A stretch of DNA of 60,425 nt from Elsinoe ampelina. Lineage: Eukaryota. The notes beneath the pieces were generated by a model. That model ran no database searches, was not told the origin of the DNA, and was given only the letters and a program-made list of their open reading frames with translations. Where the stretch lies: assembly GCA_010093995.1 (NCBI GenBank), contig ML992516.1:478422-538846 (forward strand). Reading direction: 5' to 3'. Below are positions 14,209 through 37,281 of this stretch, piece after piece (position 1 is the first letter of the stretch; each line of letters opens with the position of its first letter). The translations under genes and the position numbers were made by a program.

Positions 14209-14375
14209 ACACACGCATATATCTACCATCGGATCACTCAATGACACAATCATCACTACCATCAAGTACAAAGGGTATAGTTGATTCAAATATCCGCTAT
14301 GAAGTAAACCTGTTTTTCAATCCCACCATTTCTCATACCCAGCAGCATTCGCCGGCGAATACTCGATTATTTCGT

Positions 14376-20574: not shown

Positions 20575-22212
20575 ATGAGGACCACTCTTTACCTCGCTGC
20601 CCTACTGCAACCACTCTGGGCTTCTGCTCAGAACAGCACTTCGCCTGCCAGAGGGCCATTGTGTGCTTGCAGTCAACTCTCTGCCCTCAATGCTAGCAAC
20701 TATGTTGCAAAAGACAGCACCGACTACCAGACTGAGAATTTGAAGGTCTGGGATAAGAGATCGAACCAATCTCCGGCATGCATCTACCTGCCAACAACAG
20801 CGGACGATGCAGCCGAGGCAGTTAGCATTCTCAACTCTTGTAATGCTGTCTTTGCCCTGCGTGGTGGCGGACACATGAATGTACGTCAAGGCAAAATTTG
20901 TGGCTATTTTGTACTGACCTATCTAGTACCCGGGTTCCAACAACATCGATGGTGGTGTCCTCCTCTCCCTCAACCGCATGGATGAGCTGCAGCTTTCCAA
21001 CGATACCGAGACAGTCGCCATTGGCCCCGGTAATAGGTGGATTGACGTATACTCTTACCTAGAGCCTTTCGGCAAGTATGTCATCGGTGGTCGTTTAAAG
21101 GTCATTGGCGTACCCGGCTTGACCCTCATCGGTGGTGTCAACTACTTCATCAACAAGTACGGCTTCTCAATGGACAATGTGGTTAATTATGATGTGATCC
21201 TCGGCAATGGCACTCAAGTCAAGGCCAACCGGCAGGAGAATCCAGATCTCTTTTGGGCACTGAAGGGTAGGGTCATCGTCCTGTCTGTACTATCTGCTTG
21301 CTGACTTCTCTTAGGTGGCGGCAGCAACTTTGGACTCGTCAGTCGCTTTACTTTCAAGACTCTCCCCATCGCCAATGCTTCCACAACAATTTCCGTCTGG
21401 GGTCCCCAAGCCATTGAACCCTTCATCCGTGCAGTCTGCAAGTTTGTTGATAACATTGGCAACAAGCCCTCCGTAGCTGCTGGTGGGGTTCTAAACATCA
21501 ACTATAATGCCACGACCGGTGTTAGCACCGCCAACTTTTTCGGCTCACAAGAAGGCACCGAGTCTCCCGCTAGTAGCTTTGCTCCCTTTGCCAAATTACC
21601 AGGAATCCTCCAGAAGAGAGATGCAGTCACTACTCCCGCCAAATTTTCGGCCAACTTTGATTCACCTGCCCAGATGTTCAGGATCCAATTCGGACATCAC
21701 ACCATCCGCACAGATCCTGATAGGTTGATCAGCATTTACAACCAGTGGGTCGAGGCACTGCAGGATATTCGAGATGTGCCCGGTCTTCAACCTACATTTG
21801 TTCTCAACCCTGCTCCAAAGAGTGCTGCGAGGGTAGCAAAGAAGAACGGTGTTGGCAATGTCTGGGGTCTGGATGATAAGGAGAACTACATCTGTGAGTT
21901 GTTCAGCACTCATTCTCGATTATGGCACTAATTCTGTCAGGGTGGCAATTATCTACAGCTTGGGCTAATCCCGAGGACGATATTAGAGTGACCTCGTGGT
22001 CAAAGTCACTTCTTGAGAGGCTTCACAGGGAGAACATCGACATGGGCATAGGAACAGAGTTCTTGTACTCTGGTGATGCTTCGGAGAGTCAGGATGTTTA
22101 CGCAACATTACCAGAGAAGAACAGGGATAGGCTGTTTGATGTCAGGGATCGGTACGATGTGGATGGTGTGTTCCAGCGTTTGAACTATGGTGGGTTCAAG
22201 CTGGGATACTAG
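20575..22212 (+). CDS. Secreted FAD-linked oxidoreductase (BBE/AA7-like, VAO/PCMH fold)
   Basis: Signal peptide; PACIYLP, FALRGGGH (covalent FAD His), GLTLIGG, NPDLFWALKGGGSNFG, C-terminal RYDVDGVFQRL..GGFKL; three introns. Confidence 0.88.
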
Positions 22213-22340
22213 AAGAAGGTGGTCTTGTACATGCGGAATACGCTTTGGATCTTGGTAGTACATATGTTGTATTCGATAGGATGGTTAGCAGATAAATTAG
22301 CGCATTGCATGGACCCTAATCGGTTATGGCGTCCCCGCCT

Positions 22341-23891
22341 TTATACATTGGCTAGAGCTTGCTTCATCTCCCAGACAGCATCATACCCGTACGCCCACTT
22401 TTGTGTCACAGGATCACTCCACTGATTTGGGCTCTCCTCGAACACTTCACCCTTGACCTCCGGCTCCATCAGTTGGTCTCTCGTCTTCTGCTCCTCACCA
22501 TCCTCAAGATGCCAGATCACTCCATTCACAGCACTCGCCCTCTGCATCTGCCCAGCTCTCAACGATCTCACCCTCTCAAACACCGCCAACCTCTCCGGCA
22601 GATCTCCGATTCCTGCTCCCTTCAAAGCTGCGCCTAGCGCCGCCGCATCTTCAATTGCCATACCCGCCCCCTCGGACATGTAAGGCAACATAGCATGAGC
22701 TGCATCTCCCAGCACCACCAGCTTGCCAGATTCGGACGTCCACTTGCTCAAATTCGGCACAGTAAGGAGTGGCCACTTCATCGTGACCTCAATCTTGTCA
22801 ATCAGCGCCACCAGTCTCGGATCCCAGTGCTGGAAATAGGTCTTCATATCTGCCAGAGTCTTTTCTTGGGACGCAGAAGACCAATTGGCTGGGTCAGAGG
22901 CGTCGTGGTGGGAGAGGACGAGATTGAATTGTGAGCCCGAGGAGATGGAGTAGGTCATGACATGCTGTGATGGACCGATCCAGATGTTGATGTTGGGGGT
23001 TGTGAGCAGCCAGGATGTCGCCGGGTCAGAAAGCATTTTCGAGACTGGGACCGTGGCTCGATAGGCCGCAAAGCCAGTGGCTATGGGTAGGGTAGGAGCT
23101 GATGGGTCGACGAGGGGACGGGCTAGGGAGCGGATCCCTGATCGTGGTCAGCTGGACTGGATTGGAAGTGGAAAGGGTGGGTCTCACCATCTGCTGCTAC
23201 GACAAGATCTGCCCGTCGTCTGTCTCCGGTGGATAAGACGACTTCTCCGGCTTCTTCAATGTATTCCACCACTTTCGAATCGGTCGTCAAAGTCACTCCA
23301 TGCTCCAATGCAAGACGATGGAGGGCTTCATGAAAGTCTGCTCGATGTACGACGTAATAGGGTGCAGAGAACTTTTGCTTAAAGTCGGGCTTGAGAGCGG
23401 TGTAGCCGATAGCATTACCGTTTTCCCATCTGCGGAAGGTGATACTTTCTGGTTCGACTACTCGATCTTGTAGGTATGCTCCCAGACCCCACTCAAGTAA
23501 GATTCTAGCAGAGTTTGGGGGAATCTGGATGCCGGCTCCGACCTTGGATACATGTAAGAGTCCACTCGATTAGTACTACACTGGGACGTACCTCTCCGAG
23601 TCTCTTGGCTTGCTCGAGTACCTCCACATGATGCCCTTGTTTAGCCAGGGCAATGCCAGTGGCTAGACCTCCCAGTCCTGCTCCTACAACGAGCACATTG
23701 AGGGGAGACGATGATGAATTGATCTTGTCCAGGAACTTGAGGCTGTTCGTCGGATATGCAGGCCCCTGCTCAAGTCAACACGTGTGAGACCAGCCAAATG
23801 AGTGACCAACCTGGACTAGTACTTTGGCACCGCCACCCAAGCACGTGACTTTCGAGGCGTCGACAAGATCTGGCTCCACTTTCGAGATCAT
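22341..23891 (-). CDS. Group A FAD-dependent aromatic monooxygenase (salicylate hydroxylase / 3-hydroxybenzoate 6-hydroxylase-like)
   Basis: VLVVGAGLGG, GAGIQIPPNS, DLVVAADG, VVLGDAAHAMLPYMSEGAGMAIED; ATG 23891; about three introns. Confidence 0.9.
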
Positions 23892-23982
23892 GATTGATTA
23901 CATCTAGCTTTCATCGAATGCATCGCTTACTTGTGCACATATTCTTGTCTTTGTTGTTCTGCCCTGACACCCTGTCTCATCG

Positions 23983-24019
23983 CGGGGCATCTTCGGGTAT
24001 CGTTGCCGGTCTTTCCCCG
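23983..24019. promoter_or_regulatory. Two CCG-N8-CCG sites in the monooxygenase/TF divergent promoter
   Basis: 23983-23996 (- strand CCGAAGATGCCCCG) and 24006-24019 (CCGGTCTTTCCCCG). Confidence 0.55.
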
Positions 24020-24108
24020 CCACCGCCGCCGCCTGAGGTGTCGCTCTTCTTCCCCGTCCTTTCCATCATTTCCGTTCATTCCCCATCCCTTCTCATCACC
24101 GTTCCGTC

Positions 24109-26649
24109 ATGATGAATCGAGAGACCAACAATGGTTCATCGGATCGTGGGGCGGAAGATGTCCCGCCGCCGAAGCGTAGGAGGATCGCGCTCGCCTGCAA
24201 TGCCTGTCGAATCAGGAAGTCGAGAGTGAGTTGGTCCATACCGAGCGGGCAGCTTTCTGTCGGCCGAGCTGTCTAGCGGTATGATGCAGAGACGAACTAC
24301 ATGCTGATGGACTCTAGTGTAATGGTGGCCATCCCAAGTGTTCCAATTGTATCGGCCTTGGTTTCGAGTGTAGTTATGAAGCCTCCGAAGGAACCTCGAA
24401 CTTGATAGTTCGCAAAGAGTGAGTGGTCCTTTACCATTAGGGTTGGGGAGACAGGTGAGCGGAGCTTGCTGCTGATTTGATCAGACAAATGGCAGTATTG
24501 GACAATCGACTACAGGAAATTGAAAAGCAGTTGGCCCTGCATGCAGAATTCCTTCGCTCTCACTGGAATGCTTGTAGCAATGGGGAACCTATAAGACCAT
24601 TTTCTGGTAACACTGTTGTGGCTGCGATGTCCGAGTCTGCTACAATTGCACAAGCAGATGCTTCTGAAGATGGGGACGATCAGCCTACAACTGATGGCAT
24701 GGGAATATCCTTTGTGGATGAGAACGACTTTGCTTTCTATGGTAATGCCGATGTTGTATTCGAGAAAGTTGAGCTGATTCGTAATAGGACCTTCATCCAA
24801 TATCCATTTCATGCGTGCCATCATCAATGCTGTGGCACCTGGAAACCCAAACACCCCTTCAGCCATGACTCTCACAGTCGACAGCATACTCAAGGCTTCG
24901 AGGACCCATGCCAACGAAGCACGAGCTGATCATGAGGGCGTTCAATCATATATCCTCCCGCCAGAGGATGACATGGTGCAGATGTTGAAAGCATACTTTG
25001 GGAACACTGGTCTGATCTTTCCATTCATTCATGAGGCTACTTTTATGCATGAATACAATACAGCAAAGGATATGGGATTCAAGAAGGTTCGCAAGTCATG
25101 GCTAGGACTGCTAAACATGATCTTTGCCATGGCTATCAATATCGATCTGTCTCAAACGCCAGCTGGAGGAAAGTATCCCAAGTCGAACATCTTTTACGAG
25201 CGGGCTAGTAAGCTTGGTCATGAAGAGATGTTGAGGGGTACTACAATTGAGACAGGTATGAATACCAATGCTGTCAACGCTCAGACTGACCGTACTAGTC
25301 CAATTCCTCCTCCTCATGAGTTTGTACCTTCAAGGTGCACACAAGAGTGTTCAGACCTTCACCATCCATGGCCTGGCCGTCAAAGCATGTTTCTCTCTAG
25401 GCCTTCATTCAAGTCAGTCTTCGCATCGTTTCTCACCAGTAGAGAATGAGATTCGTAAGAGGACTTTCTACACTTGTGTCATACTCGATCGGTCAGTGTA
25501 CATTTCGTTTCATGAACCTCTGCTGACCTTTACAGTACATTGAGCTTTAGCTTTGGGAGACCACCGATGATACCACAAGACTACGTCCGCCTTCCATTGC
25601 CGGCTCTTTGGCCTGATGCCGGTCCTCAAGATCGGTCACACTATAGTTCGGTATTCTTCGGCTGTTCTGCGTAAGTCTTATTTCTCCCATGCTTCTGATC
25701 GATGCTAATTAAGTAGAAACCTGCATCAGATCTCCTACCAGACCATACACCACATGTACGGCCTCAATATCGATTTTGTCAACGATGAGAGTCTTCTTAT
25801 CACTCAAGTTCTCAATGTCGGCGTAGAGCTGGATCGATGGCGGGCTCGATTACCTTCTGAGATGACTTTGCTGACCACCGAGGCTTTGAAGATTGGGCAG
25901 GTGACTGCAATGAAGCTGCCATTCATCATGACTTTGAGATACCATAACGTCAAGCTCATGGCGTATCGACCATTCGTGTCAAGAATGCTCCAGGATGTTG
26001 CAGCGGTTGACCATATAGGGTCTCACACCTCAGTACAACCCATGATTGGTCATGTCAAGCAGCCTTGTACAGATGCTGCCAAAGAGACCATAGATCTTAT
26101 TGAGACTGCACTTGCGACTCCTGGTGTTGGCAGTGCTGTCATGGGTGCCTGGTGGTTCACTTTGCATTATGGTATGTTTCCTATCGATATCACAAGCCCT
26201 CGCTGATCGTTCTAGTCTTCAGCGCTGCTCTTGTCTTTGCAGCCAATACAGTCATCACTCTAAATCTCACCGTACACGATGGTGCTCAACAGGTCCAGAT
26301 GTTTCAGAATTACCTCAATAAGGCTATCAAGTGTCTGGATGGAATACCTGGAGAAGATGTCATCCTGGCTAGATGCCGGCAGTACATTGAGCGGATATCA
26401 CAAGTCTTGGTTGACTATGGTAACACTCCGTCTGATCAGCTTCGGAACTTTGGACTATCCACATCTCATATTGTGGAGAAGGATTCAAGAACGCAGCTTG
26501 CTACACCTGGCAGTCTCGACATCAGCAGAACGATTGATCCATTTGCAACGGATGCCAATTTCTTCAACTACTTTCCGGGATTGGACATGCCTGATATCAA
26601 CTCGCTGGTGAATGCCGATATGGAGATTGCAAACTTTTTTACATCATAA
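24109..26649 (+). CDS. Zn(II)2Cys6 pathway-specific transcription factor embedded in the cluster
   Basis: KRRRIALACNACRIRKSR / intron / CNGGHPKCSNCIGLGFEC; YFGNTGLIFPFIH, LGLHS, RKRTFYTCVILDR, MGAWWFTLHY. Confidence 0.9.
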
Positions 26650-26650
26650 G

Positions 26651-28294
26651 CTACCTATCCATCAATTCCAATTCCTGAGCTGGCACCCAATTACCATGCA
26701 GACCATGTCTCAGTCGTACAGGGAGTAGGACCACCGCTTGAGCCTTTGAAAAGTCCTTTGTGTCGATGATGTGGAGCTCGCTGGACATGGTGGCATAGTT
26801 GTTCACCAAGAACATGACCCAGCCATCTCCTTCTTCTGCTGTGCTGGACCTTTCGAGGAATACTGGCTCTTGAACGAGATGGGTTGGTCCCGGGCAGTAT
26901 TGTCTCAGCGTCTTTGTGACAATATCAAGATGACCAATCCCGTTGTACACGGGATGTCCTCCACCCATGACTGGGACAATTTTGGACATATCTGTGCCAA
27001 GAGACATGTCCATCAGATTGAAGAACATGTGACGGTACTCTTGCATCGAATATCTGTCATCAATTCGCGGAAACTCGCTATCCATTTTGATGAGTTGCAC
27101 TGGTTTGACATCGAGGTCGTCCGTGTGCGGGTCAATGGTGAAGCGAGACATGTGAGCTGTGATGGTGTGAGGGTCTGGAGAGTTCCCTTGTGAGTCTGGC
27201 CACCAGAAGAATACGTTCTTGTCGCTGATTGGGAGATCAAAGATGATCTTGCCCTCTGCATTCTCGTACGCATTTGCTGTATGGCCGGGGAAACAATTTG
27301 GAGCTCGGAACCACTGGATAGATCAGTCTTTGGTCACTTCGCTTGCGAATTGGATCTACCTTGACATCTTCTCCCTTTGCTCCCCGTCGAGGAAGGACAC
27401 CGATGTAGAAGGGAACGTCTGGATTCCACTGCCAGTGTTCGCCTCCCGCTTTCATCCGTTCGAGGTCACATGTCTGAGGTATACATGGAAAGATGATCCA
27501 GTTGTCGGTCACTGCAAAGTCATGGATCATGGCGACAACTGGGCAGATAGTCCAGACTGTTTCTGTGAATTTTCCATCTGGGCTGATGTTGAAGTAGCAG
27601 ATGTCAGGTGTGCCATCACCTTTGGCTTCGTAACCAAATCCAATCAGCTCACCCGTCTTTGGATCAACCTTTGGATGAGCAGTAAAGGTCGTGCTGGGAA
27701 GCTGTCCATCAAAGTCCTCCAGTCGGATGGTTTCGAGCGTTCTCGGGTCGAGGCTGTACGGCGGCGCATCTTCCTTGATGGCTAACAGCTTTTTGTTGAA
27801 GTAGAAGACATTGGTGTTTGCGGTTGTCCTTACTTTGAACTCGACGGCATCAGTGTATTTGTTGCGATACTTGCCTGCTTATGTCAGCTTCGAGGTAGAA
27901 TTTATAGGCGTCATACTGACCAACTAGGGCACGCTTTGCCTTTCGCTCTCTGACGAACTTTTCGGTTCGGACATATCTTTGCTTGAAATGAATTTTGCCG
28001 GCATGAATTTGGAAAGCACTGATATTGCCATCGCCATTGAACCACTTGGATACTCAGTCTTGGAGCTTTATCATTGTCGGATGTACATACCGGATCATCT
28101 TCTATGAAAGGAGCATGCTGTGGGTCTGGCATAACCCGATAGAAGGTCCCGTCAATCTCGTGGGGTATTTCGCCATGAACTTCGAGATCTTGGATTTCTC
28201 CTTCGAATCTGCATGGCTTCATAAAGCCCGAGAATTGTGGTCGGTCAGGGAAATGATTCGCCACGGGTGGCAAACGCCGTAGATGACCCGCCAT
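26651..28294 (-). CDS. Lignostilbene/resveratrol-cleaving dioxygenase (carotenoid oxygenase/RPE65 family)
   Basis: PQFSGFMKPCRFEG, GTFYRVMPDP, GKYRNKY and LLAIKED (Tyr/Lys positions that bind the stilbene 4-OH), and four Fe-ligand His motifs FTAHPK, MIHDF, PGHTAN, HGLHGNW; three introns. Confidence 0.92.
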
Positions 28295-28422
28295 GGTCTG
28301 AGAATGCTGGATACCTGCATCGATTCGAGTTTCCAGCTCGAGCTATTTGTTGAGTTCCAAGACGTGTTTACTCCGCTTACACAGCGGAGTTTGAAACACC
28401 TCAACGGCACCCGAGAGCTCAT

Positions 28423-28499
28423 CCGACAGTTCCCCGGTCCACTTTGCAAATACCGAGAACCTTTCCCCACGGGGTCACCACACTTCCGGAGGTTCCCCG
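28423..28499. promoter_or_regulatory. Two CCG-N8-CCG sites in the stilbene dioxygenase/gentisate dioxygenase divergent promoter
   Basis: 28423-28436 CCGACAGTTCCCCG and 28486-28499 CCGGAGGTTCCCCG. Confidence 0.6.
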
Positions 28500-28597
28500 A
28501 GGTCTTCCATGCTGAGCACATCACTGGTACATCATACTGACACATATTGGGATGTTATTGCAGGTAGGATGAGAAACGAATACAACGACGGAACAAC

Positions 28598-29703
28598 ATG
28601 TCGACCACAGCTATCACAAAGACAGAAACAATGGCTTTGGAGATCGACTCCGCAGAGAAATTGATCTCCGAACTGCCCGCCACTCACACCCTACCGCTAT
28701 GGGCTCAGATGGCGAAGCTGAACCCGGCGGCGCCAAATCCAAAATGTGTGCCTCATGTGTGGAAGTTCTCAGAGGTGGAGCCGTACTTGCTTCGAGCGGG
28801 CAATCTTGTGACCGAGAAGCAAGCTGAGAGGCGAGTCTTGATGCTGGTCAACCCTGCGAGAGGTGAGTATCAAGAATTCAATATCATACATTGCTAACAA
28901 GCTATCAGAGGCTCCCTATACTACCGACACTGTCTATGCTGGTCTTCAATTGGTCATGCCGAATGAGACAGCTCCAGCACATCGCCATGTCGCCTTTGCT
29001 ATGCGTTTCATCATCTCTGGGAAAGGTGGTTTCACTGCTGTACATGGCTCTAGGATTCCGATGGAGAGAGGTGATGTTATCCTCACTCCAACCTGGAACT
29101 GGCATGATCATGGGAAAGATGGAGATGGGCCAATGATCTGGCTTGACGGTCTGGACCTGCCTTTGTTCCGACACTTTCCTGTCCACTTTGTACAACACTT
29201 TGAGAAGGATAGGTATCCTGCTACAAACATTGACAAGGAGGACAGTCCGATTGTGTACCCTTGGAAGCAGATGCAAGCGGAATTGGATGCAGCAGCTGAT
29301 GGCGGAGTGTCCTGGGTGACAAAGCCATACCTGAAACCTGATGGTCGACAAGGTTTGTAATTGTGCTCTGTTGAGGTTCACCACTGATATCTTTCCAGTC
29401 AGTCTTACTCTTGGTGGATCAGCTGCACGACTTGAAGCTGGATCAAAATCACCAGCTATTCGAGAGACTGCTTCATCAGTGTACCATGTCGTCACTGGTT
29501 CTGGTCATAGTATGATTGACGGGAAGCAATTCTCGTGGAAGCAAGGGGATACCTTTTGCATTCCGACATGGAACAGCTATCAGCACTTTGCGAATGACTC
29601 GGGTACAGTCTACCTCTATCGCTTTGACGACAAGCCAATGCTTCAAGCGCTGGGCTTCTATCGAGTCGAAGGCACCGATGTGGAAGAGTATGTCTCAACC
29701 TAG
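28598..29703 (+). CDS. Gentisate 1,2-dioxygenase family (bicupin)
   Basis: [48 protein letters not shown]; introns ~28863-28909 and ~29352-29397. Confidence 0.93.
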
Positions 29704-31262
29704 AGCCTTGCCTGCCGCTCCGACTCAAGGACTCTTCTTGCAGCTGCAGTACCTGCTCTTCTCCCGAACACTGACCCAGAAGTCAAGCCACTCCCTCCTG
29801 GATAGTTGTTGTAGAATAATCCACCAAGCATTTCTCCAACACAGAATAGTCCTGGTATCTCGCAACCTGTTTGTTCCGAAATCACCGCGGTCGATTGGGG
29901 GGCAACTTTGAGCCCGCCGAATGTGAAAGTGATGCCACCTGTGACCTTGACAGCAAGGAATGGCGGTTTGTCTATTGGCAGTGCCCAATTTGTCTTTGGC
30001 AATGTCAAATCTTGAGTCGCCATGCCGTCCTTGACAGCCGGATCCCATTTCTTTTCTGGATGAGCCTTCACATGCTTGTTCACAGCAGAATTGTACTCCT
30101 TTAGCGTCTGCACGAATTTGTTCCTGTTCTTCAATCCAGCCTGGCTACATTTCTCTGCCAGCTCCTCGATTGTACTGGCAGTGATCTTCTTTACAACTTC
30201 ATCTCGGTATTCTTCTTCTCTCAACCACGGTATCGTTCTAGAATCCCATACCTGAAATGCTGCTCCATCTGGCTGAGCAAGTATCTGCCTTCCAAAGATG
30301 GCATATGTGTAATTGCGATAGTCGACCCCTTCGTCCACAAATCTCTCACCATTGACATTGATCATGACTCCGAGAGGATATCCTGATTTCGTGAACTCGT
30401 TGCTTACACCCCTGTCACCACTATTCCGCGGTGCATTCGCATCCCAGCATGTTGCATGACAGCCAGACCAGTCTCCTGCTGTCTTCGCCCCTGCGTCTCT
30501 GACTGCGATATCTAGGAGATCGCCAGTATTGTGAGGGGTGCCGCGGACATACGCTAAGTCCCAGCCGTGGCCTAGATGTTTCGCACGTAGCTCAGGGTTG
30601 GCCTCGAAACCACCTGCTGCAAGGATTACTGCCTGGGTGGCGATGTTTACGGATTTTCCGTGCGAGCTGACCGAGACAGAGGCTATTGCGCCAGTGGAAG
30701 ATGTATGAAGGGCCGTAGCAGCGGTAGAATAGTAGACCTTGATACCGTGATGTTCTGCGGCTGCTTTGTGGTCTTCAATCAGCCCTTTGCCACCATCCTC
30801 TGTCTTTAGGGCGAGACCACCCCAGAACTTGTATCGGTCGTCGACGAGGAATGATTGACGGTTGAAGGAGAGCTGGAAGCGTACGCCTAGTGTAGAGAGC
30901 CATTTGATAGTCTGATTGGATTCGTTGATAAGGATACCGCAGAGTGTCGGGTCTGATTTGCCTTGACATATGCGGTCCATGTCTGCTTGAAAATCTGCTG
31001 TCGTGTATGGGACCAGATCCACTCTATCCGCCAGCTCGTCATCAACGTTGTTGACTAGTGGTAGGAGATCTGGGAGGCCTTCATGAACTGTCCGCATCGC
31101 ACCAGCTGTGAAATATGAATTCCCGCCTGACCATTCCTCTGGGCATTTGTCAATGATCATGACATCTTTGGCGCCATTCTGGACAGCGGATATGGCAGCG
31201 CAGAAGCCGGCGTTGCCTCCTCCGATGACCAGGACATCACATCGTTCGGGTGGCGAATTCAT
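29700..31262 (-). CDS. TcuA/CobZ-like FAD-dependent oxidoreductase (fumarate reductase flavoprotein family), intronless
   Basis: 520-aa ORF: DVLVIGGGNAG, GGNSYFTAGAMR, VILAAGGFEAN, VRGTPHNTGD, GITFTFGGL, NYPGGSGLTSGSVFGR. Confidence 0.88.
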   Translation of the reverse strand: MNSPPERCDVLVIGGGNAGFCAAISAVQNGAKDVMIIDKCPEEWSGGNSYFTAGAMRTVHEGLPDLLPLVNNVDDELADRVDLVPYTTADFQADMDRICQGKSDPTLCGILINESNQTIKWLSTLGVRFQLSFNRQSFLVDDRYKFWGGLALKTEDGGKGLIEDHKAAAEHHGIKVYYSTAATALHTSSTGAIASVSVSSHGKSVNIATQAVILAAGGFEANPELRAKHLGHGWDLAYVRGTPHNTGDLLDIAVRDAGAKTAGDWSGCHATCWDANAPRNSGDRGVSNEFTKSGYPLGVMINVNGERFVDEGVDYRNYTYAIFGRQILAQPDGAAFQVWDSRTIPWLREEEYRDEVVKKITASTIEELAEKCSQAGLKNRNKFVQTLKEYNSAVNKHVKAHPEKKWDPAVKDGMATQDLTLPKTNWALPIDKPPFLAVKVTGGITFTFGGLKVAPQSTAVISEQTGCEIPGLFCVGEMLGGLFYNNYPGGSGLTSGSVFGRRAGTAAARRVLESERQARL

Positions 31263-31843
31263 GATAGCAAGTGGGAGGCTTCAGGTTTGTGCGAGGCAAG
31301 AAGCTGAAGGTACGGATGAAAATGTCAGAGATTTAGCTCCACAATAGCCTACATTTTGATGATATATACTGAGGTAGAAAGGTCAGAGAGTCTCGATCGG
31401 AATTCGGCATCTTCGTGGTGGAGAAATCCTGCAGATCATCAGTCCGCCACTTCTCCTCCCCCAGCGACATCATTCGACGGACAGTTGCCCCACGCTTCAT
31501 TGAAAGGAGGAATAGCTTGAGCCGGGAGATCTGGTCATCACGCCCATGCGGTACATCGAGCCGCGGTCATTGCGACTACATTGGGACTGCTAGAATTCAC
31601 GGCCAGCGCTACATACTCGAGTCATTGAGAGACGTCCGCCATCAACGATAGCATCTCCCAATTCTTTACGGAACGACGAGGGAGCCATCACGATGCGGTG
31701 ACCGTCGTCCGGTAGGTGTCCATTGCTTCATCGCCTAATCACATGCGCTCGTTTCAAGGACTGTTCTCGATGCACTCCACAAGTACTACATCCATTCTGC
31801 TTCTCTGTAAACTACCTCCACAGCTACCACGATTCTCCAAGCC

Positions 31844-33706
31844 TCATTCAGCTCTCTTAGGGCTATATAGTCGCTCCGACCAGCCTCTCAACTTTTCACC
31901 ATACAGATACAGGGGGATCGCCAACAGCACTGCAATGGCAACCACCATGAACATGATCATGTAAACCTGGATCCAACCAGATGCTTGCACCCAGTCTACC
32001 GCCACATACAAGAAGACGAAGGCCACCAAATTTTTGAAGACATTGATGATGACGAGGCAGTCGGAGGCAAAAGCAGGGTGACTTTCGACAACGTAGGTGA
32101 TGGCGATGTTGGGTGAAAACACGGTACCAAAGGATACTGTTACTGGTCAGCTTGGATTAAGCTTCCTACGCCGCAGACTTACCCATGCCAAATCCGAAAG
32201 CGATTCCGACCCAAGAGAGTTGGTAAGCACAGGTGAAGGCAACCACAATGCAGCCAGCACATCCAACCCAAGCTCCTGGTATCAATGAGACCAGGCGTTG
32301 CTCCGGGAAATATGATCCTTTGGCCTTGACGATTTGACGAGTAGTGATGAGATCAGACAGATAGCCACCTCCGAAGCAAGCAAGGACAAAACCGATGATT
32401 GCTGCGACCTGGATCAAGCCGACACTTGTCTCGGCGAAGAAGTAAGGTGGTGCCAGTAGAAGAGATGGAAAGGCAAAGCTATCGTCGTGTCAGCTTTGAT
32501 ATCTCAGATTTCTTTTCACTTACATCAAGATCACTTGGGAGGCTAGTGCCGTGCCATACACTAGTACCGCCCACAGTACACTCGGATATAGAATAAAGGC
32601 CAGCTGTCGAGAGAATGCCTGGAAGAATCCGATGCTGCGGTCGTATCGTATGAAAGATGTCCAGACCTTTGGCCAAGACACTTGCACATGGCTGACATGC
32701 TGAACTCCAAGACCCTCGGTCTCTACAGCCTCTACGCGGGTATCATTTTCCTTCTCAGTTTGCTCAGAATCGGCCACTTCGTATATCATGGGTCTTCTAA
32801 ATGTCGATTCCGGGTAGAAGAGGTAGATGACGACTAGATTGAATCCGGCCAAAGCAGCACATACCCAAGAAAAGTCTCGCCATGTTCCGGGAGTGCCTGC
32901 AATGACAAAGCCGGCTATTAATGGACCAATAGCTGTGGCGCCTGATGTCAAGATGACATATAGGGACATCATTCCAGCTCTTTCGTGCAGGAAGAAAATG
33001 TCGGCAACAATTTCTGGTACCAAGGACTCCCCAGCAGAGGAAGCGAAGCCGGAAAGACATCTAGCTGCGAGTAATTCGTTGTATGTCTTTGCTTTGGCGG
33101 TCCAGATCAAGATGGCGAATAGCATCGTCATTGAGACGAGGAGGGAGAAGCGTTTACCGAACTTGGTGGCGATAGGGACCCAGAACATGTTGCCGACACC
33201 AAGAAGGAGGAAGTTGAACTGAAAACTGTTAGCCAACTTCAACTACTGGACGGTCGTATGTTCTGGCCAATCCTGTGTTGACTGAGGCCAACAACCCCGA
33301 TGGGAGCCGGCCCACCTTGGCCAAAAGTACCACAGTCGAGTACTACATGAGCAGTAGGGGCGCTTGCACCGTGTCTGCTCTTGTGTAGATCTCTATTTTG
33401 GTACTTCTGGTGGGCCGGAAGAGATTTCACGACAGGAGTATCTGGACGAGGATGGCTTACTGTCAAAAGAGCGTTGATCTGGCTGGCCGTCTTCTGGAAC
33501 TGCATCTCCAATACTGGTGTCGCTACCGAGAACCCTGCTCCTGCAAAGTTGGCCGTAAAGTTGAACAATGCCACCGATAGGATAGCCACAATCTTGACCC
33601 ATTTTGGCCATCTCAATGGGTCTTTCTCGTCTGTGGATGGCGGTGGCCAGAGTGCTATGCCATGGTGCTTGCTCGAGGAGCCGACGGTGATTCGATCGAC
33701 AGTCAT
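31844..33706 (-). CDS. MFS transporter (DHA1-like)
   Basis: P.PSTDEKDPLRW, multiple TM segments, LLAARCLSGF, ADIFFLHERA, PEQRL; introns 33219-33460, ~32471-32521, ~32140-32183. Confidence 0.88.
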
Positions 33707-33824
33707 GTTGCTTTGTCGTTGTGTTCTGGTCTGGTCTTGCGGGGTCCCCACACTGTTGTTATGGTTCTTGAGGACATCAATATCTGGAGATGATATTTGG
33801 TCGTTGAGCCCTAAGCCCGGACTC

Positions 33825-33875
33825 CCGACACACCCCCGTAATTGTTATGTGAGACATGATCCCGTGACATACCCG
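33825..33875. promoter_or_regulatory. Two CCG-N8-CCG sites in the MFS/DUF3237 divergent promoter
   Basis: 33825-33838 CCGACACACCCCCG and 33862-33875 CCGTGACATACCCG. Confidence 0.5.
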
Positions 33876-33964
33876 CCCCTCCGAGGAAGCCCTGAAACCC
33901 CGTCAAATAAAACATGCTATGTCGGGAGGACTACTGGACAGTCTCGGCAGCACTTGCAAACACC

Positions 33965-34438
33965 ATGGCACCCAAGCTGGAATACGTCTTCACACTCAAT
34001 GTCGACTTGGCACCTCCTGTCGACTACGGCAGCACTTCGACTGGGGATCGTCGATTCATACCTATCACCGGTGGTACTTTCAGTGGCCCGAAGCTTTCTG
34101 GCCGGATTTTGCCCGGGGGAGGAGACTGGAACAATGTTCGCTCTGATGGAGTGGTGCACGTTTACGCCAAATACAGCATTCAAGCCGACGATGGGACTAT
34201 TATCAGCATCACTAATGAAGGCTATGGTCGATCGAGTCAGGACGAAATGAAAGGAGTGTTTGCAAGCGACTACAACGGCGCTCCGGATGCATCCTCGGAA
34301 TGGTATACCAAGACCTGGCCCCGATTTGATGTGGAGGCGGGGAAGCACGAATGGCTGGGGAAGAGCTGTTTCCTCGGGGAACTACTGAGACCGGATCGAC
34401 CGGGGCATGTCAAGATTGAAGTGTATGAGATTCTTTGA
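33965..34438 (+). CDS. DUF3237 (UPF0311) beta-barrel protein, intronless
   Basis: G.RRFIPITGGTFSGPKLSGRILPGGGDW, YSIQADDG..I.ITNEG, WYTKTWPRF...KHEWL. Confidence 0.85.
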   Translation: MAPKLEYVFTLNVDLAPPVDYGSTSTGDRRFIPITGGTFSGPKLSGRILPGGGDWNNVRSDGVVHVYAKYSIQADDGTIISITNEGYGRSSQDEMKGVFASDYNGAPDASSEWYTKTWPRFDVEAGKHEWLGKSCFLGELLRPDRPGHVKIEVYEIL

Positions 34439-34453
34439 GCGTTTCAATTCTTG

Positions 34454-34487
34454 CCGGCAGTTCCCCGGTCGTCCCGGTAGCTCCCCG
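34454..34487. promoter_or_regulatory. Two CCG-N8-CCG sites in the FAH promoter
   Basis: 34454-34467 CCGGCAGTTCCCCG and 34474-34487 CCGGTAGCTCCCCG within a 115-bp intergenic gap. Confidence 0.6.
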
Positions 34488-34553
34488 GCTTCAATCAACC
34501 ACTTTTACCCTCGAGTAAGCGCAAGGTTACGTCTGAACAGTGCATCTATCATC

Positions 34554-35569
34554 ATGAAAACTTCTTGGAATCGTTTGATCAGGTGTGAAACCACGGACGG
34601 TCGTGTCGTCAACGCCGAGCCAGTACTCCCGGACCCTGACTTTGATCTTGGCCTCGTCAAGGAGGAGCATCAGTTGCAGGCCAAAATTATCATTGGAGAT
34701 GATCTATACGAAAAATCTACTGTGACGGATGAGGTTGTCACTGTCAAGAAGATACTTGGACCCCTGTCGCCGCAAGACATACCAATTCTCCGATGTGTTG
34801 GACTCAATTATGCAAAGCACAGTCGGTCAACCTTCCCTACAGCCGGACCAGCATTGACATTCGATAGTCAAGGAAGCCGGTCGGTCTCCACCTCCGTATC
34901 CTTTCATCTTCTTCAAGCCGAATACGACGGTCTGCGGTCATGGAGATGATGTAATCATTCCAAAGATAGCCCAGGATGAGCAAGCCGACTATGAAGGCGA
35001 ATTGGTGGGTATCTCAGCCTCAGACTCCTTCCGCTAACGTCGTCAGTGTATGGTCATTGGTAGGGATGCCAAAGATGTTTCAGTCGAGAACGCCTTGGAC
35101 TATGTTGCAGCCTATACTGTCGGGAACGACATTTCGTCCAGGAAACTGCAGCGGGATCCAGCACTTGCAGGCAAGGTACCGCAATGGGGCTTCTCCAAAG
35201 GGTTCGACACCTTTGCGCCGTTGGGTCCCTGCTTGGTCTCGGCATCACTGGTTGCGGATCCTGCAAAGCTACATCTACAGACCATTGTGAATGGACAGGT
35301 GAGGCAGGATGAAATGGTGTCGGATCTGCTCTTCGATTGTGCATATCTTGTGTCGTATCTTTCGCAAGGTACCACTCTGCAGAAGGGTAGTGTCATTATG
35401 ACTGGAACTCCTGGTGGTAAGTCGATATTTGAACGACAGGGATACTGGACTGACTGGTGTAGGTGTCGGAGCTGGAATGAATCCTGCGCAGTATCTCAAG
35501 CCTGGCGATGAGATGCGTGTGGTTATTTCTGGAATCGGTACTCTCGTCAATGGTGTCAAGTTCACCTGA
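34554..35569 (+). CDS. Fumarylacetoacetate hydrolase-family protein (acylpyruvate hydrolase-like)
   Basis: LRCVGLNYAKH, IFFKP, DYEGEL, GNDISSR, QWGFSKGFDTFAPLGP, IMTGTPGGVG; three introns. Confidence 0.92.
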
Positions 35570-35578
35570 ATACATCCT

Positions 35579-37281
35579 TCATCCAACTGTTCCAAAACCC
35601 AATTTTCGGAATGGTATTGTCTGCGTCTTCACCGGTTTCAGCGGCATTGGATCGCCACCTCCAGCGTATGTGTTGATCTCAACAGCGGTATGGCCTGGCC
35701 TACGTATGACGCTGGTGGTAACAAGCTTGAGGCAGCCGATTTCGTGCACGATTACCACTTCATGGGATCTGACCTCGTCTGGTACGATCTTGCATGGTAG
35801 GCCTAGTTTCTCTGCTCGATGTTCCTCGATATCGGCGAGCCAGCGACATCCGTCGGCTAGGGCGACCGAGTAATTCGTTCCTTCTCGCCGCTTCATTTTG
35901 TACATGAGTTGGATTATTCTTCGGCGGAGAGCTTGATCCCGGCATCTGTACGCCATCATATTCAAGGCGGGTAGGACCTCTGGATCGAGACTGAATGAAA
36001 TTTGGGCTTCACGTCCTGTGTGTCTAAAAGTTGGCGGGTCCATCATGATACATTCTGGCCATCTTTTGAGGTACAGCGACATGAGGTCCAGGGTTCTCTC
36101 GAAATGTGGAATACAGTGCTCTGTTCTCTCGTCCTCCGAATCACACATCGAGAGCAAGAGATCTGACAGCAGCAATTGAATTGCCAAGAGCAGATCTGCT
36201 GGAGTCTCCGGGGTTGATTTGGCTTCCAGTAGCGGTCCACACCAGTAAGCATGGAGGTTGCGGACTTTCTTCAAGCGGTCCACTTGATGATCCTTTAGGA
36301 TATGATTGGCCATTCTGGAGATCGAGCGAATCAGACAGAAATGGGGACCATGGTTCAGACCTAGCGAAAGGTCATTGATGTGCCTTTCGGCCCAGTCGAG
36401 TCTTTCCTGCATGAGTTTGTCTGCATCCGCGATCAACGCCTTGACAGTCTGGTAAGCATCCCGCTTGGACGACAGCGAATGAGGCCAGCTGGATCCTGTA
36501 TGACCTTGCGGTGTAATGATCTGCACATGATCGAGAGACCATCTATCCATTGACATAATCATGCTGTGGCAGGATTGGAGGGATACCTTGAGTGGTGCTT
36601 CACTGTATTCTTTGAGGATTGCCTTGCCGTAATCGATATGCTGGATCGCCAGGGAACTTTTGCTTTCAAGGTATACCTCGAAGGTGGCAAACAGCATTGA
36701 TGCGATCAGGATTGGTTCTGGATCCGCTGAATGACCGGACTCGATCATGAGTCGTCTAGTGTTTGCCATGGCCTTTGAATATTGCTTCATGGCAACTCTG
36801 TCTGCTTCCACATTGCGAATTCGACGGAGAATACCATCGTGGACGTTGATCATAGCTCCTGCCGCTCCAGATGCTGCAGCAATGGCCTGGAATGTGATAT
36901 GCGAAGTTGAGCTTAGTTGGAGAGCAAGATAGACCCATTCTGGGTCAGGTGATACCAGCGTCATTGGCCAGACCATGTATTTTCGGAACATTTCGAATGC
37001 ATGGCGTTCAAAGTCAGTCACATGGAAGGAGAAGGTTGGCAAGTTTCGTTCGTCGGTCAAGGGGTCGATGGGTTTCACCGCCAGGCGTTTGATAAGTTGC
37101 TGATCCGGCAGGATCTGTCGCTGTTTACCGTCGCATGTTCTTCCTGTTGTAACACACTTGTTGCATGATGGGATAGCTCGATCGCATTTGACTCGGCGGA
37201 TTCTGGATGATTAGCTGCGTTCTCAATTTGGGTGTAAACATACTTGCACGTCTGGCAACCCTGCCCAGTCTTTCCTCTCAT
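35579..37281 (-). CDS. Zn(II)2Cys6 transcription factor
   Basis: GCQTCK / intron / IRRVKCDRAIPSCNKCVTTGRTC, in frame with the 499-aa ORF (AMKQYSKAM, MLFATFE, YRCRD..LRRRII..M...RREG). Confidence 0.87.

What the first reader, a model, noticed from the sequence alone, without database searches (positions are those of the whole stretch)
22341..35569. Compact stilbene-to-gentisate catabolic cluster that includes two uncharacterised members
Seen: eight contiguous genes (flavin monooxygenase, Zn2Cys6 TF, stilbene dioxygenase, gentisate dioxygenase, TcuA-like flavoprotein, MFS, DUF3237, FAH hydrolase), with three divergent pairs. Established: LSD/RCO enzymes cleave resveratrol-type stilbenes to benzaldehydes, and hydroxylase + gentisate dioxygenase + FAH form the gentisate route; stilbene dioxygenases are already known to cluster with such modules in fungi. 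Inference: this is a plant-phytoalexin degradation unit, possibly routing the 3,5-dihydroxy ring through a hydroxylated gentisate analogue. The TcuA-like and DUF3237 genes have no assigned step in that route.
Basis: partly seen in the sequence, partly recalled or inferred. Interest (0 to 1): 0.78.

Follow-up and report, generated by a model that had tools for sequence, protein, structure and literature searches.

The report
Fungal stilbene-cleavage cluster with extra partners
A grapevine-pathogen fungus carries a known kind of gene cluster for breaking down plant stilbenes, and one small unexplained gene in it turns out to travel with the stilbene-cutting enzyme in many fungi and resembles bacterial enzymes that make stilbenes from lignin-type dimers.

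Summary
Eight genes with the stated identities lie at 22341-35569, forming three divergent pairs. Spliced RNA contigs from three studies confirm the introns. The stilbene oxygenase model is letter-identical to an NCBI protein of Elsinoe ampelina.

The core is already in print. It comprises the flavin hydroxylase, Zn2Cys6 factor, stilbene cleavage oxygenase, gentisate-type dioxygenase and FAH hydrolase. This is the 'GC cluster' (Greene 2014) or 'sco model 2' (Gluck-Thaler 2018).

The two 'uncharacterised' members differ:
- **DUF3237:** It lies within 1-6 genes of a stilbene oxygenase in seven other taxa that I could check. Its Pfam family holds the bacterial decarboxylases PhcF/PhcG and PinX, which make the stilbene-type olefins that such oxygenases cut. 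I read it as an upstream, stilbene-forming step. This is inferred, not shown, and none of the 10 papers that name DUF3237 (2 name PF11578) links it to a fungal stilbene oxygenase.
- **TcuA-like flavoprotein:** It sits beside the oxygenase only within Elsinoe. None of 80 other loci holding its relatives carries a cluster gene. It is probably a local addition.

A candidate control site, CGGN5CCCCG, marks only the promoters of the five core genes. The scan's notes hold no earlier case on fungal DNA.

The parts
22341..23891 (-). Group A flavin hydroxylase (FMO, 'salicylate hydroxylase-like'), 468 aa. Exons 23811-23891, 23592-23765, 23188-23542 and 22341-23137.
   Evidence: Pfam pieces. The best NCBIfam match of two exons is 3-hydroxybenzoate 6-monooxygenase. 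The nearest solved chains are 8gsm and 8x38, decarboxylating 1-hydroxylases. All three introns are seen as RNA joints.
24109..26649 (+). Zn2Cys6 / Fungal_trans transcription factor (TF1), 719 aa, 8 exons.
   Evidence: Fungal_trans match. The Zn-cluster motif is split by intron 24226-24317. Six introns are seen as RNA joints.
26651..28294 (-). Stilbene cleavage oxygenase (SCO, RPE65/CCO family), 501 aa. Introns 28045-28090, 27875-27920 and 27314-27359.
   Evidence: RPE65 in four pieces. The last exon matches N. crassa CAO1 5u8x at E 3.7e-62, against 1e-11 or weaker for carotenoid enzymes. All seven published 4-His/3-Glu/Lys motifs are present. The model equals NCBI KAF2219597.1. The introns are seen in RNA.
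28598..29703 (+). Gentisate 1,2-dioxygenase-type bicupin (GDO), 337 aa. Introns 28863-28908 and 29353-29398.
   Evidence: Two Cupin_2 pieces. Exon 2 matches TIGR02272 gentisate_1_2 at E 1.5e-41 and solved gentisate dioxygenases 2d40 and 3bu7. Both introns are seen in RNA.
29700..31262 (-). TcuA-like FAD_binding_2 flavoprotein, 520 aa, no intron. Its stop overlaps the GDO stop by 4 bases, so the two genes converge.
   Evidence: NCBIfam NF006130 TcuA scores 518 bits against a cut-off of 369, but TIGR02485 scores 249 against 372. The nearest solved chains are soluble fumarate reductases and urocanate reductase. It is covered by RNA contigs of runs X1 and X2.
31844..33706 (-). MFS transporter, 509 aa. 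Introns 33219-33460, 32479-32523 and 32137-32182.
   Evidence: MFS_1 and Sugar_tr matches. Exon 2 scores best with Bcr/CflA-type efflux models at E 1e-12, against 1e-4 for aromatic-acid symporters. RNA contigs end exactly at the bounds of exon 2.
33965..34438 (+). DUF3237 beta-barrel protein, 157 aa, no intron.
   Evidence: PF11578 at 124 bits. The AlphaFold model has pLDDT 89, and its top Foldseek hits are DUF3237 structures and PhnH. RNA contigs of runs X6 and X7 cover it. It neighbours an SCO gene in seven other taxa.
34554..35569 (+). FAH-family hydrolase (fumarylpyruvate hydrolase type), 293 aa. Introns 34822-34867, 35005-35046 and 35417-35462.
   Evidence: FAA_hydrolase match. Relatives are of HpaG, FAHD1 and fumaryl- or maleylpyruvate hydrolase type. 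RNA contigs start at 35462/3.
35579..37281 (-). Second Zn2Cys6 factor (TF2), 553 aa. Intron 37203-37243.
   Evidence: Zn_clus match. The intron is seen as an RNA joint.
24007..24019 (+). Candidate control site CGGTCTTTCCCCG in the FMO|TF1 promoter.
28487..28499 (+). Candidate control site CGGAGGTTCCCCG in the SCO|GDO promoter. A one-mismatch copy lies at 28424.
34455..34487 (+). Two candidate control sites, CGGCAGTTCCCCG and CGGTAGCTCCCCG, upstream of FAH. A one-mismatch copy lies at 34375 on the other strand.

Best explanation
This is the Elsinoe ampelina version of a known fungal catabolic cluster, the GC cluster or 'sco model 2'.

**Core, inferred from families.**
- The oxygenase cuts the central double bond of 4-hydroxystilbenes into two benzaldehydes.
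- After oxidation by an aldehyde dehydrogenase encoded elsewhere, one benzoate is hydroxylated by the flavin enzyme.
- The ring is then opened by the gentisate-type dioxygenase.
- The product is hydrolysed by the FAH enzyme to central metabolites.
- The whole is under a cluster-specific Zn2Cys6 factor.

**DUF3237, inferred from family and neighbourhood.** It is a true partner of the oxygenase and acts before it. Like the bacterial family members PhcF/PhcG and PinX, it would take a dimeric phenolic acid with a furan ring, open the ring and lose CO2. That creates the styryl double bond the oxygenase needs.

**TcuA-like flavoprotein.** It is an addition seen only in Elsinoe, with no shown role in the route.

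**MFS.** It looks more like an efflux pump than an acid importer.
For: **Core.**
- All five model-2 genes are present and adjacent.
- The SCO carries all seven published active-site motifs and is far closer to the resveratrol-cleaving CAO1 than to carotenoid enzymes.
- The GDO exon matches gentisate dioxygenases.
- All genes are covered by RNA contigs, and introns of FMO, TF1, SCO, GDO and TF2 are seen spliced out.
- CGGN5CCCCG occurs 5 times in 60 kb against 1.0 expected. Four of the five lie in the promoters of FMO/TF1, SCO/GDO and FAH.

**DUF3237 and SCO as neighbours, by locus tag or accession number.**

| Taxon | SCO and DUF3237 identifiers | Distance |
|---|---|---|
| Aureobasidium subglaciale | E4T42_07888 / E4T42_07887 | adjacent in four assemblies, 3 apart in a fifth |
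| Exophiala bonariae | LTR84_012333 / LTR84_012330 | 3 |
| Setomelanomma holmii | KAF2032577 / KAF2032572 | 5 |
| Pyrenochaeta sp. | KAH7357394 / KAH7357400 | 6 |
| Aspergillus niger | An09g01370 / An09g01420; IFM63326_009983 / _009980; RDH18984 / RDH18980 | 3-5 |
| A. brasiliensis | AbraIFM66950_011516 / _011511 | 5 |
| A. awamori | GCB19960 / GCB19957 | 3 |

One metagenome contig of 20,948 bases also appears to hold both genes (equal contig length).

**DUF3237 family chemistry.** PhcF/PhcG turn DCA-CC into the stilbene DCA-S, which a lignostilbene dioxygenase then cuts. PinX does the like on lariciresinoate (passages read).

**Bacterial relatives of DUF3237 (80 loci, mostly sphingomonads).** They sit in ferulate-type operons: aldehyde dehydrogenase in 37, enoyl-CoA hydratase in 32, MarR in 28 and ADP-forming acyl-CoA synthetase in 21.

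**TcuA-like.**
- 0 of 80 metagenome loci holding a relative carry any other cluster gene.
- The only recurrent fungal neighbour is a transcription factor, in 6 of 22 loci.
- Adjacency to SCO is seen only in E. fawcettii, KAF4550087/088.
Against: - No enzyme was assayed and no induction data were seen.
- The window's DUF3237 is only 33-34% identical to the paralogs of strain LY that I take to be PinX and the PhcG homolog. I identified those by position alone.
- In a quick tree, the fungal clade (57 rows, support 98) is separate from that pair.
- Another DUF3237 enzyme, PhnH, catalyses ring closure rather than decarboxylation.
- The MFS|DUF3237 promoter and the TcuA upstream region lack the CGGN5CCCCG site. 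This argues weakly against common control.
- DUF3237 and SCO are not close in Exophiala xenobiotica. In E. batatas the tags are 565 apart.
- Only 2 of 80 bacterial DUF3237 loci have a stilbene oxygenase within 8 kb.
- The FMO's nearest solved relatives remove the carboxyl group. If this enzyme does so too, it would not feed a gentisate-type dioxygenase.
- No aldehyde dehydrogenase and no maleylpyruvate isomerase were found among the ORF pieces scanned, which were those of at least 62 aa in 21.8-37.3 kb and a selection of longer ones elsewhere.
Confidence: 0.6

Rival explanations
1. The unit serves only to detoxify host phytoalexins of the resveratrol type. DUF3237 and the TcuA-like enzyme both work downstream on the unusual 3,5-dihydroxy ring products, for example on a hydroxylated maleylpyruvate.
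For: The host of E. ampelina is recalled to be grapevine, whose main phytoalexins are stilbenes; this is recalled knowledge, not a tool result. Fungal SCOs from model-2 clusters cleave resveratrol, pterostilbene and piceatannol. Within the window, TcuA-like and DUF3237 lie between core genes. FAD_binding_2 enzymes act on C=C bonds next to carboxylates.
Against: DUF3237 travels with SCO in fungi recalled to be from rock, glacier, conifer and soil habitats (habitats recalled, not from a call), not only in grape pathogens. TcuA-like relatives are never near cluster genes elsewhere, 0 of 80 loci. No family member of either protein is known to act on ring-fission products.
Confidence: 0.2
2. DUF3237 is a phenolic-acid decarboxylase for monomers. 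It turns hydroxycinnamic acids into vinylphenols, and the oxygenase then cuts these to benzaldehydes. This would be a cofactor-free ferulate-to-vanillin route.
For: Bacterial relatives sit in ferulate-type operons. PinX was compared by its authors with the phenolic acid decarboxylase PadC, at 13% identity. Some fungal SCOs cleave the monophenol isoeugenol.
Against: The model-2 enzyme MoSCO did not cleave isoeugenol. All characterised DUF3237 decarboxylases act on dimers. Foldseek's E <= 0.001 hits for the model were DUF3237 structures, PhnH and the cyclase PloI4, none named as a phenolic acid decarboxylase.
Confidence: 0.12
3. DUF3237 is a PhnH-like cyclase or ring-opening enzyme that loses no CO2. 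For example, it could open the dihydrobenzofuran ring of stilbene dimers (viniferins) so that the oxygenase can act.
For: PhnH is a fungal DUF3237 enzyme that adds a phenol OH across an alkene. It is a structural match of the model, with Foldseek E 8e-8.
Against: The sequence match to PhnH is weak, E 5.8e-7 over half the protein. The linkage is not limited to grape-associated fungi.
Confidence: 0.06
4. The extra genes are chance neighbours and only the five core genes work together.
For: The CGGN5CCCCG site is confined to the core promoters. TcuA-like has no link elsewhere.
Against: For DUF3237, a spacing of 1-6 genes from SCO in seven further taxa of four orders is far from chance in genomes of about ten thousand genes.
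Confidence: 0.05

Closest known systems
Fungal 'gentisate catabolism (GC) cluster' of Aspergillus fumigatus (Greene et al. 2014, PMC3914699), also called 'sco cluster model 2' (Gluck-Thaler et al. 2018, bioRxiv 10.1101/343673)
   Same: It has the same five core genes: stilbene oxygenase, gentisate dioxygenase, salicylate-hydroxylase-like FMO, fumarylpyruvate hydrolase and Zn2Cys6 factor. An MFS and a second C6 factor sit at the edge, as in A. fumigatus.
   Different: There is no aldehyde dehydrogenase. The window adds a DUF3237 gene and a TcuA-like flavoprotein, and neither is named in the main text of either paper. DUF3237 occurs 0 times in the 2018 main text, and its supplements are closed. 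I did not search the 2014 text for the word; DUF3237 is not among the GC genes named in the passages I read.
PhcF/PhcG (Sphingobium lignivorans SYK-6) and PinX (Novosphingobium rhizosphaerae LY), DUF3237 decarboxylases of lignin-dimer catabolism
   Same: They share the Pfam family and the predicted beta-barrel fold of that family's solved structures (no PhcF/G or PinX structure was compared). They are also linked to a stilbene or diene cleavage oxygenase that takes their product.
   Different: Identity to the LY paralogs is only 33-34%, and the fungal clade is separate. The protein is fungal and has no signal peptide by eye. No GMC oxidases of the PhcC/PhcD kind stand beside it.
Neurospora crassa CAO1 and other fungal resveratrol cleavage oxygenases (Rco1 type)
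   Same: The last exon matches at E 3.7e-62, and the 4-His/3-Glu centre and the Lys motif are kept.
   Different: The substrate range is untested.
TcuA tricarballylate dehydrogenase (Salmonella tcuABC)
   Same: It passes the NF006130 cut-off, 518 against 369 bits.
   Different: It is under the TIGR02485 cut-off. No TcuB-type partner was found in the window or among recurrent neighbours of 27 bacterial relatives, of which 3 have ETF genes instead.
Candida parapsilosis gentisate cluster (MNX2, GDX1, FPH1, transporter, GTF1)
   Same: It has the same hydroxylase, dioxygenase, hydrolase and Zn2Cys6 logic, as cited in Greene et al..
   Different: The yeast cluster has no stilbene oxygenase. I did not compare the sequences.

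Membership tests
sco cluster model 2 / GC cluster | sco, gdo, salicylate-hydroxylase-like FMO, fumarylpyruvate hydrolase and Zn2Cys6 factor co-located; at most one may be missing. | tested here: met
   All five lie within 22341-35569.
Stilbene cleavage oxygenase (SCO/LSD branch of CCOs) | Four iron-binding His, three second-shell Glu, and the Lys (A.KE) motif for the 4'-OH. | tested here: met
   The motifs are FTAHPK 173, MIHDFA 225, FPGHT 289, GLHGNW 485, AIKE 141, EFPR 361 and QEP 429, checked against the motifs listed.
Stilbene cleavage oxygenase (SCO/LSD branch of CCOs) | Closer to stilbene enzymes than to carotenoid enzymes. | tested here: met
   CAO1 matches at E 3.7e-62 and LSD/NOV at 1e-32 to 1e-38, against 5.6e-12 or weaker for carotenoid and apocarotenoid oxygenases.
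Stilbene cleavage oxygenase (SCO/LSD branch of CCOs) | Cleaves 4-hydroxystilbenes. | not testable with these tools
   Needs an enzyme assay.
DUF3237 decarboxylases (PhcF/PhcG/PinX) | Pfam PF11578 domain over the gathering score. | tested here: met
   124.3 bits against a cut-off of 24.
DUF3237 decarboxylases (PhcF/PhcG/PinX) | Groups with the characterised decarboxylases in a tree. | tested here: not met
   In a quick tree of 106 rows, the fungal clade (57 rows, SH-aLRT 98) is apart from the pair taken as PinX and the PhcG homolog of strain LY. The careful search did not finish, and the identity of those two rows rests on locus-tag position.
DUF3237 decarboxylases (PhcF/PhcG/PinX) | Works with a stilbene or diene cleavage oxygenase that takes its product. 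| tested here: met
   It lies four genes from SCO in the window and within 1-6 genes in seven other taxa. This shows co-location only.
DUF3237 decarboxylases (PhcF/PhcG/PinX) | Decarboxylation with ring opening. | not testable with these tools
   Needs an assay.
TcuA tricarballylate dehydrogenase | Passes the curated equivalog models. | tested here: inconclusive
   NF006130 scores 518 against 369 and passes. TIGR02485 scores 249 against 372 and fails.
TcuA tricarballylate dehydrogenase | Encoded with TcuB (electron outlet) and TcuC (transporter). | tested here: not met
   No CCG or Fe-S protein was found in the window's ORF pieces. The adjacent MFS has no relative beside the 80 TcuA-like loci.
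Gentisate 1,2-dioxygenase | Bicupin matching TIGR02272 and the solved GDOs. | tested here: inconclusive
   Exon 2 alone matches at E 1.5e-41 and matches 2d40 at 6e-39. The whole-protein cut-off could not be applied because only single exons may be handed to the tools.
3-hydroxybenzoate 6-hydroxylase | Best match among group A hydroxylases; keeps the carboxyl group. | tested here: inconclusive
   The best NCBIfam match for two exons is 3HB6H. Among solved chains, however, decarboxylating 4-hydroxybenzoate and vanillate 1-hydroxylases (E 3e-51 and 1e-44) far outscore the bacterial chain 4bjy ('probable salicylate monooxygenase'; its identity as 3HB6H is recalled) at 4e-13.

The most novel reading that the evidence does not exclude
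DUF3237 plus the stilbene oxygenase form a widespread two-enzyme fungal module. It would split plant phenolic dimers that carry a 2-aryl-dihydrobenzofuran-3-carboxylate, through a stilbene intermediate.

The bacterial substrate DCA-CC is, as I recall and not from any call, the same compound as the 8-5' benzofuran form of diferulic acid. That compound is a common cell-wall cross-link, and feruloyl esterases would release it ready-made.

If so, this would be the first intracellular fungal pathway for a lignin-type or diferulate dimer. It would also explain why the bacterial relatives sit in ferulate operons.
Probability: 0.3. Interest if true: 0.8.

Novelty: new variant of a known kind. Interest (0 to 1): 0.58.

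Why it matters

A small, intron-free, easily expressed protein keeps company with the stilbene oxygenase from black Aspergilli to Elsinoe. That gives a direct, cheap test of whether fungi run the bacterial 'make a stilbene, then cut it' logic.

DUF3237 is worth an assay. The TcuA-like gene is probably a bystander.

For the grapevine pathogen itself, the locus is a candidate for coping with host stilbenes.

Tried and rejected
- **Own genome:** none is held for this window, so no genome-wide look was possible.
- **Earlier scan notes:** look-ups by sequence for both unknowns found nothing. Look-ups by words found no fungal case.
- **RNA holders:** the run search listed no holder on record as RNA. 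The four runs I laid did show spliced contigs. Depths from contigs cannot rank genes, so I draw no co-expression claim from them. The thin cover of the TcuA-like gene in runs X6 and X7 is not used as evidence.
- **Vanillate idea:** I considered that the 'gentisate' core is really the A. niger vanillate/methoxyhydroquinone route. I dropped it because MhdA is a homogentisate-dioxygenase relative and its partner is an esterase (passages read).
- **GST at 13.5 kb:** I tested it as the missing maleylpyruvate isomerase. It is not zeta-class; maiA scores 26 bits against a cut-off of 171.
- **BBE-like gene at 20.6-22.2 kb:** I tested it as the vanillyl-alcohol oxidase of 'model 3'. Its nearest solved chains are BBE, oligosaccharide oxidase and EncM types, and one piece found nothing.
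- **Shared words in promoters:** exact shared words of 7-10 bases across the six upstream regions gave none.
- **Neighbours of bacterial TcuA-like genes:** no family recurs in more than 5 of 27 loci.
- **First DUF3237 alignment:** it was too diverse for the genome scan, so I used a smaller one.

Full report
**What is there.**

The window is fungal. It has short GT..AG introns of 41-92 bases, plus one modelled intron of 242 bases in the MFS gene. It also has a 6-kb AT-rich left end.

Pfam on 109 ORF pieces of 21.8-37.3 kb, with hand splicing, gives nine genes in a row:

| Gene | Coordinates | Strand |
|---|---|---|
| Flavin hydroxylase (FMO) | 22341-23891 | - |
| Zn2Cys6 factor TF1 | 24109-26649 | + |
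| Stilbene cleavage oxygenase (SCO) | 26651-28294 | - |
| Gentisate-type bicupin (GDO) | 28598-29703 | + |
| TcuA-like flavoprotein, no intron | 29700-31262 | - |
| MFS transporter | 31844-33706 | - |
| DUF3237, no intron | 33965-34438 | + |
| FAH hydrolase | 34554-35569 | + |
| Second Zn2Cys6 factor TF2 | 35579-37281 | - |

My SCO model equals, residue for residue, the NCBI protein 'carotenoid oxygenase [Elsinoe ampelina]'. That names the organism. As I recall, it is the grapevine anthracnose fungus.

**Transcription.**

Contigs of four public runs from three studies were laid on 21800-37600. Two runs are labelled organism A and two organism B. The contigs lack exactly my introns:
- three in FMO, which corrected my first guess for intron 1 to 23766-23810
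- six in TF1
- three in SCO
- two in GDO
- one in TF2

So these runs hold RNA. The genes are transcribed and the models are sound. Contigs also cover the TcuA-like gene (runs X1, X2), the DUF3237 gene (runs X6, X7), MFS exon 2, and the last FAH exon from its splice site. Contig depths cannot rank genes, so I claim no co-expression.

**The core is a known cluster.**

Gluck-Thaler et al. 2018 (passages read) define 'sco model 2' as five genes: sco, gentisate dioxygenase, salicylate hydroxylase, fumarylpyruvate hydrolase and a Zn2Cys6 factor. They found 35 such clusters. Greene et al. 2014 (passages read) described the same set in A. fumigatus as the GC cluster, with an MFS and a second C6 protein at its edge.

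The window meets this definition:
- The SCO carries all seven published motifs of the 4-His/3-Glu centre and the Lys motif.
- Its last exon matches N. crassa CAO1 at E 3.7e-62, against 5.6e-12 or weaker for carotenoid enzymes.
- The GDO exon matches TIGR02272 and the solved gentisate dioxygenases.
- The FAH exon matches the HpaG, FAHD1 and acylpyruvate hydrolase group.

The FMO is less clear. NCBIfam ranks 3-hydroxybenzoate 6-monooxygenase first for two exons. The nearest solved chains, however, are decarboxylating 4-hydroxybenzoate and vanillate 1-hydroxylases, at E 3e-51 and 1e-44. The bacterial chain 4bjy, which I recall to be the 3-hydroxybenzoate 6-hydroxylase, scores only 4e-13. Whether this enzyme makes a gentisate or a hydroquinone is therefore open, and the logic of the lower pathway depends on it.

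**A candidate control site.**

Looking for CGG..CCG pairs in six upstream regions, I saw four sites of one build, CGG-N5-CCCCG. In the whole window this pattern occurs 5 times against 1.0 expected; 0 of 100 shuffles reached 5. Four of the five lie in the FMO|TF1 promoter, the SCO|GDO promoter and, twice, upstream of FAH. One-mismatch copies add a second site in SCO|GDO and a third before FAH.

The pattern was chosen after seeing the sites, so the statistics are only a guide. Still, it marks exactly the five core genes. It is absent from the 581 bases upstream of the TcuA-like gene and from the MFS|DUF3237 promoter.

**DUF3237.**

The protein matches PF11578 at 124 bits. It folds with confidence (pLDDT 89) into the beta-barrel of the solved DUF3237 proteins. 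PhnH, an Aspergillus DUF3237 protein and, far weaker, allene-oxide-cyclase and dirigent-like barrels follow in the hit list.

Ten papers name DUF3237 and two name PF11578. Two of them place it in bacterial lignin-dimer catabolism:
- PhcF and PhcG of Sphingobium SYK-6 decarboxylate the dihydrobenzofuran acid DCA-CC to the stilbene DCA-S. A lignostilbene dioxygenase then cuts DCA-S.
- PinX of Novosphingobium rhizosphaerae LY decarboxylates lariciresinoate with ring opening. A lignostilbene-dioxygenase homolog acts downstream.

PhnH of Penicillium herquei instead closes such a ring. I read the passages naming DUF3237 in three of the four fungal papers; none concerns a stilbene oxygenase. The fourth, on Fusarium sacchari effectors, and two bacterial genome papers I saw only in the search listings. 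The main text of the 2018 sco paper does not contain the word, and its supplements are closed.

**DUF3237 travels with SCO in other fungi.**

I compared the names and accession numbers that the protein collection gives for the best relatives of both proteins.

| Taxon | Distance between SCO and DUF3237 |
|---|---|
| Aureobasidium subglaciale | adjacent in four assemblies, 3 apart in a fifth |
| Exophiala bonariae | 3 locus tags |
| Setomelanomma holmii | 5 accession numbers |
| Pyrenochaeta sp. | 6 accession numbers |
| A. niger, three strains | 3-5 |
| A. brasiliensis | 5 |
| A. awamori | 3 |

The two are not close in Exophiala xenobiotica. In E. batatas the tags are 565 apart on one contig; this is either a rearrangement or tags that are not positional, and I cannot tell which.

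For the other named species with a DUF3237 relative, no SCO appeared among the 120 listed hits. They could not be scored.

Seven taxa from four orders besides the window is far more than chance allows in genomes of about ten thousand genes. Accession order is only a proxy for position, though, and a proper synteny count is still needed.

**How close is it to the characterised enzymes?**

The 80 best bacterial loci are almost all sphingomonads, Steroidobacteraceae and Halomonadaceae, at 36-46% identity. Their recurrent neighbours are:
- an aldehyde dehydrogenase, 37 of 80
- an enoyl-CoA hydratase/lyase, 32
- a MarR regulator, 28
- an MFS, 26
- an ADP-forming acyl-CoA synthetase, 21

This is the make-up of ferulate operons. 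Naming it as ferA/ferB/ferC-like is my reading, helped by the gene table. Only 2 of 80 loci have a stilbene oxygenase within 8 kb, and 3 have an FMO-like gene next door.

Strain LY has eight DUF3237 paralogs. By locus-tag arithmetic, the one at 78 kb should be PinX and one at 3.47 Mb the PhcG homolog. The window's protein is 33% and 34% identical to these, and 42% to the plasmid copy in the ferulate-type setting.

I built a quick tree of 106 rows; the careful search did not finish. The fungal proteins form one clade of 57 rows with support 98. That clade joins the sphingomonad ferulate-context clade and three smaller groups at an unresolved fork of weak support (83), apart from the PinX/PhcG-like pair.

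So the family and its chemistry fit, but membership in the characterised subgroup is not shown. Asp54 of the GGGDW motif is invariant in my alignment of 29 sequences. It appears kept, as GGDY and GGDF, in the two LY paralogs when read from the printed sequences. It is a candidate catalytic residue, and this is inference only.

**The TcuA-like flavoprotein.**

It passes one NCBIfam TcuA model (518 against 369 bits) and fails the other (249 against 372). Its nearest solved relatives are soluble fumarate reductases and urocanate reductase.

The family is widespread and well kept in Pezizomycotina, at 63-80% identity among the 120 best of at least 8000 hits.

Of 80 metagenome loci holding a relative, none has a tblastn match at E < 1e-6 to DUF3237, FAH, GDO, SCO, FMO or the MFS. 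These 80 were the best of 556 found. Many are short; only 22 fungal-like loci have 6 kb or more. The only neighbour that recurs across lineages among those 22 is a Fungal_trans factor, in 6 loci. Among 27 bacterial loci no partner recurs in more than 5. ETF genes occur in 3, and no TcuB-like protein was seen.

Beside SCO it is found only in E. fawcettii, with consecutive accessions. In seven other species that appear in both hit lists, the contig lengths differ. This is a weak test, since the lengths belong to 90% clusters.

I conclude that it is a self-contained, separately regulated enzyme that has come to lie inside the cluster in Elsinoe. Its family chemistry is making or reducing a C=C bond next to a carboxylate, which would allow a role on a propenoate side chain. 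Nothing here shows such a role.

**Other points.**
- By its best-scoring exon, the MFS resembles Bcr/CflA-type efflux pumps more than aromatic-acid importers.
- No aldehyde dehydrogenase and no zeta-class GST were found among the window's ORF pieces scanned. At least two steps of the textbook route must therefore be encoded elsewhere or be skipped.

**Verdict.**

The finding is real. Its core is a published cluster type. The split verdict on the two extra genes is the new part.

DUF3237 as a recurrent partner of fungal stilbene oxygenases, read through PhcF/PhcG/PinX, points to a 'make a stilbene, then cut it' module in fungi. A 2026 review says no such fungal dimer pathway has been reported. 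The step is inferred, not shown.

Noticed in passing
window 34700-37202: In run X1, one RNA contig of 2579 bases at depth 1312 runs unspliced from inside TF2 through the 3' half of the FAH gene on the opposite strand; neighbouring contigs are at about 77. TF2's transcript seems to extend antisense over FAH, and the FAH contigs in turn reach 35924-36059. The two are convergent, overlapping transcripts.
   Followed up: no
window 29700-29703: The stop codons of the GDO (plus strand) and the TcuA-like gene (minus strand) overlap by 4 bases, so their 3' ends must overlap. One RNA contig spans both genes.
   Followed up: no
window 20563-22209: A BBE-like FAD_binding_4 oxidase gene lies tail to tail with the FMO. 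Its nearest solved chains are oligosaccharide oxidase, 6-hydroxy-D-nicotine oxidase and EncM types, not vanillyl-alcohol oxidase. Whether it belongs to the cluster is open.
   Followed up: partly
window 1-6000: About 6 kb at 30-33% G+C precedes genes at 48-55% G+C. This resembles a RIP-degraded repeat block.
   Followed up: no
L081-L160 (bacterial loci): The closest bacterial DUF3237 proteins, many with an N-terminal signal-like stretch, sit between an aldehyde dehydrogenase and an enoyl-CoA hydratase/lyase, with an ADP-forming acyl-CoA synthetase and MarR nearby. This is a ferulate-type operon with an unassigned DUF3237 member.
   Followed up: partly
window 51248-51260: The fifth copy of CGGN5CCCCG (CGGTCTGTCCCCG) lies far outside the cluster, near ORF pieces with no Pfam match.
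   Followed up: no
window 13515-14810 and 41924-49098: Other genes in the window are a Ure2/YfcG-like GST, a pectate lyase, further Zn2Cys6/Fungal_trans factors (18240-19577 and 38704-39675), a family-28 glycosyltransferase and a BMS1/Tsr1-type ribosome biogenesis GTPase.
   Followed up: no
Elsinoe batatas proteins P0347, P0349, P0143: In E. batatas the near-identical SCO, TcuA-like and DUF3237 proteins carry locus tags 001637, 001688 and 002202 on one 3.17-Mb contig. Either the cluster is broken up there or the tags are not in map order.
   Followed up: no
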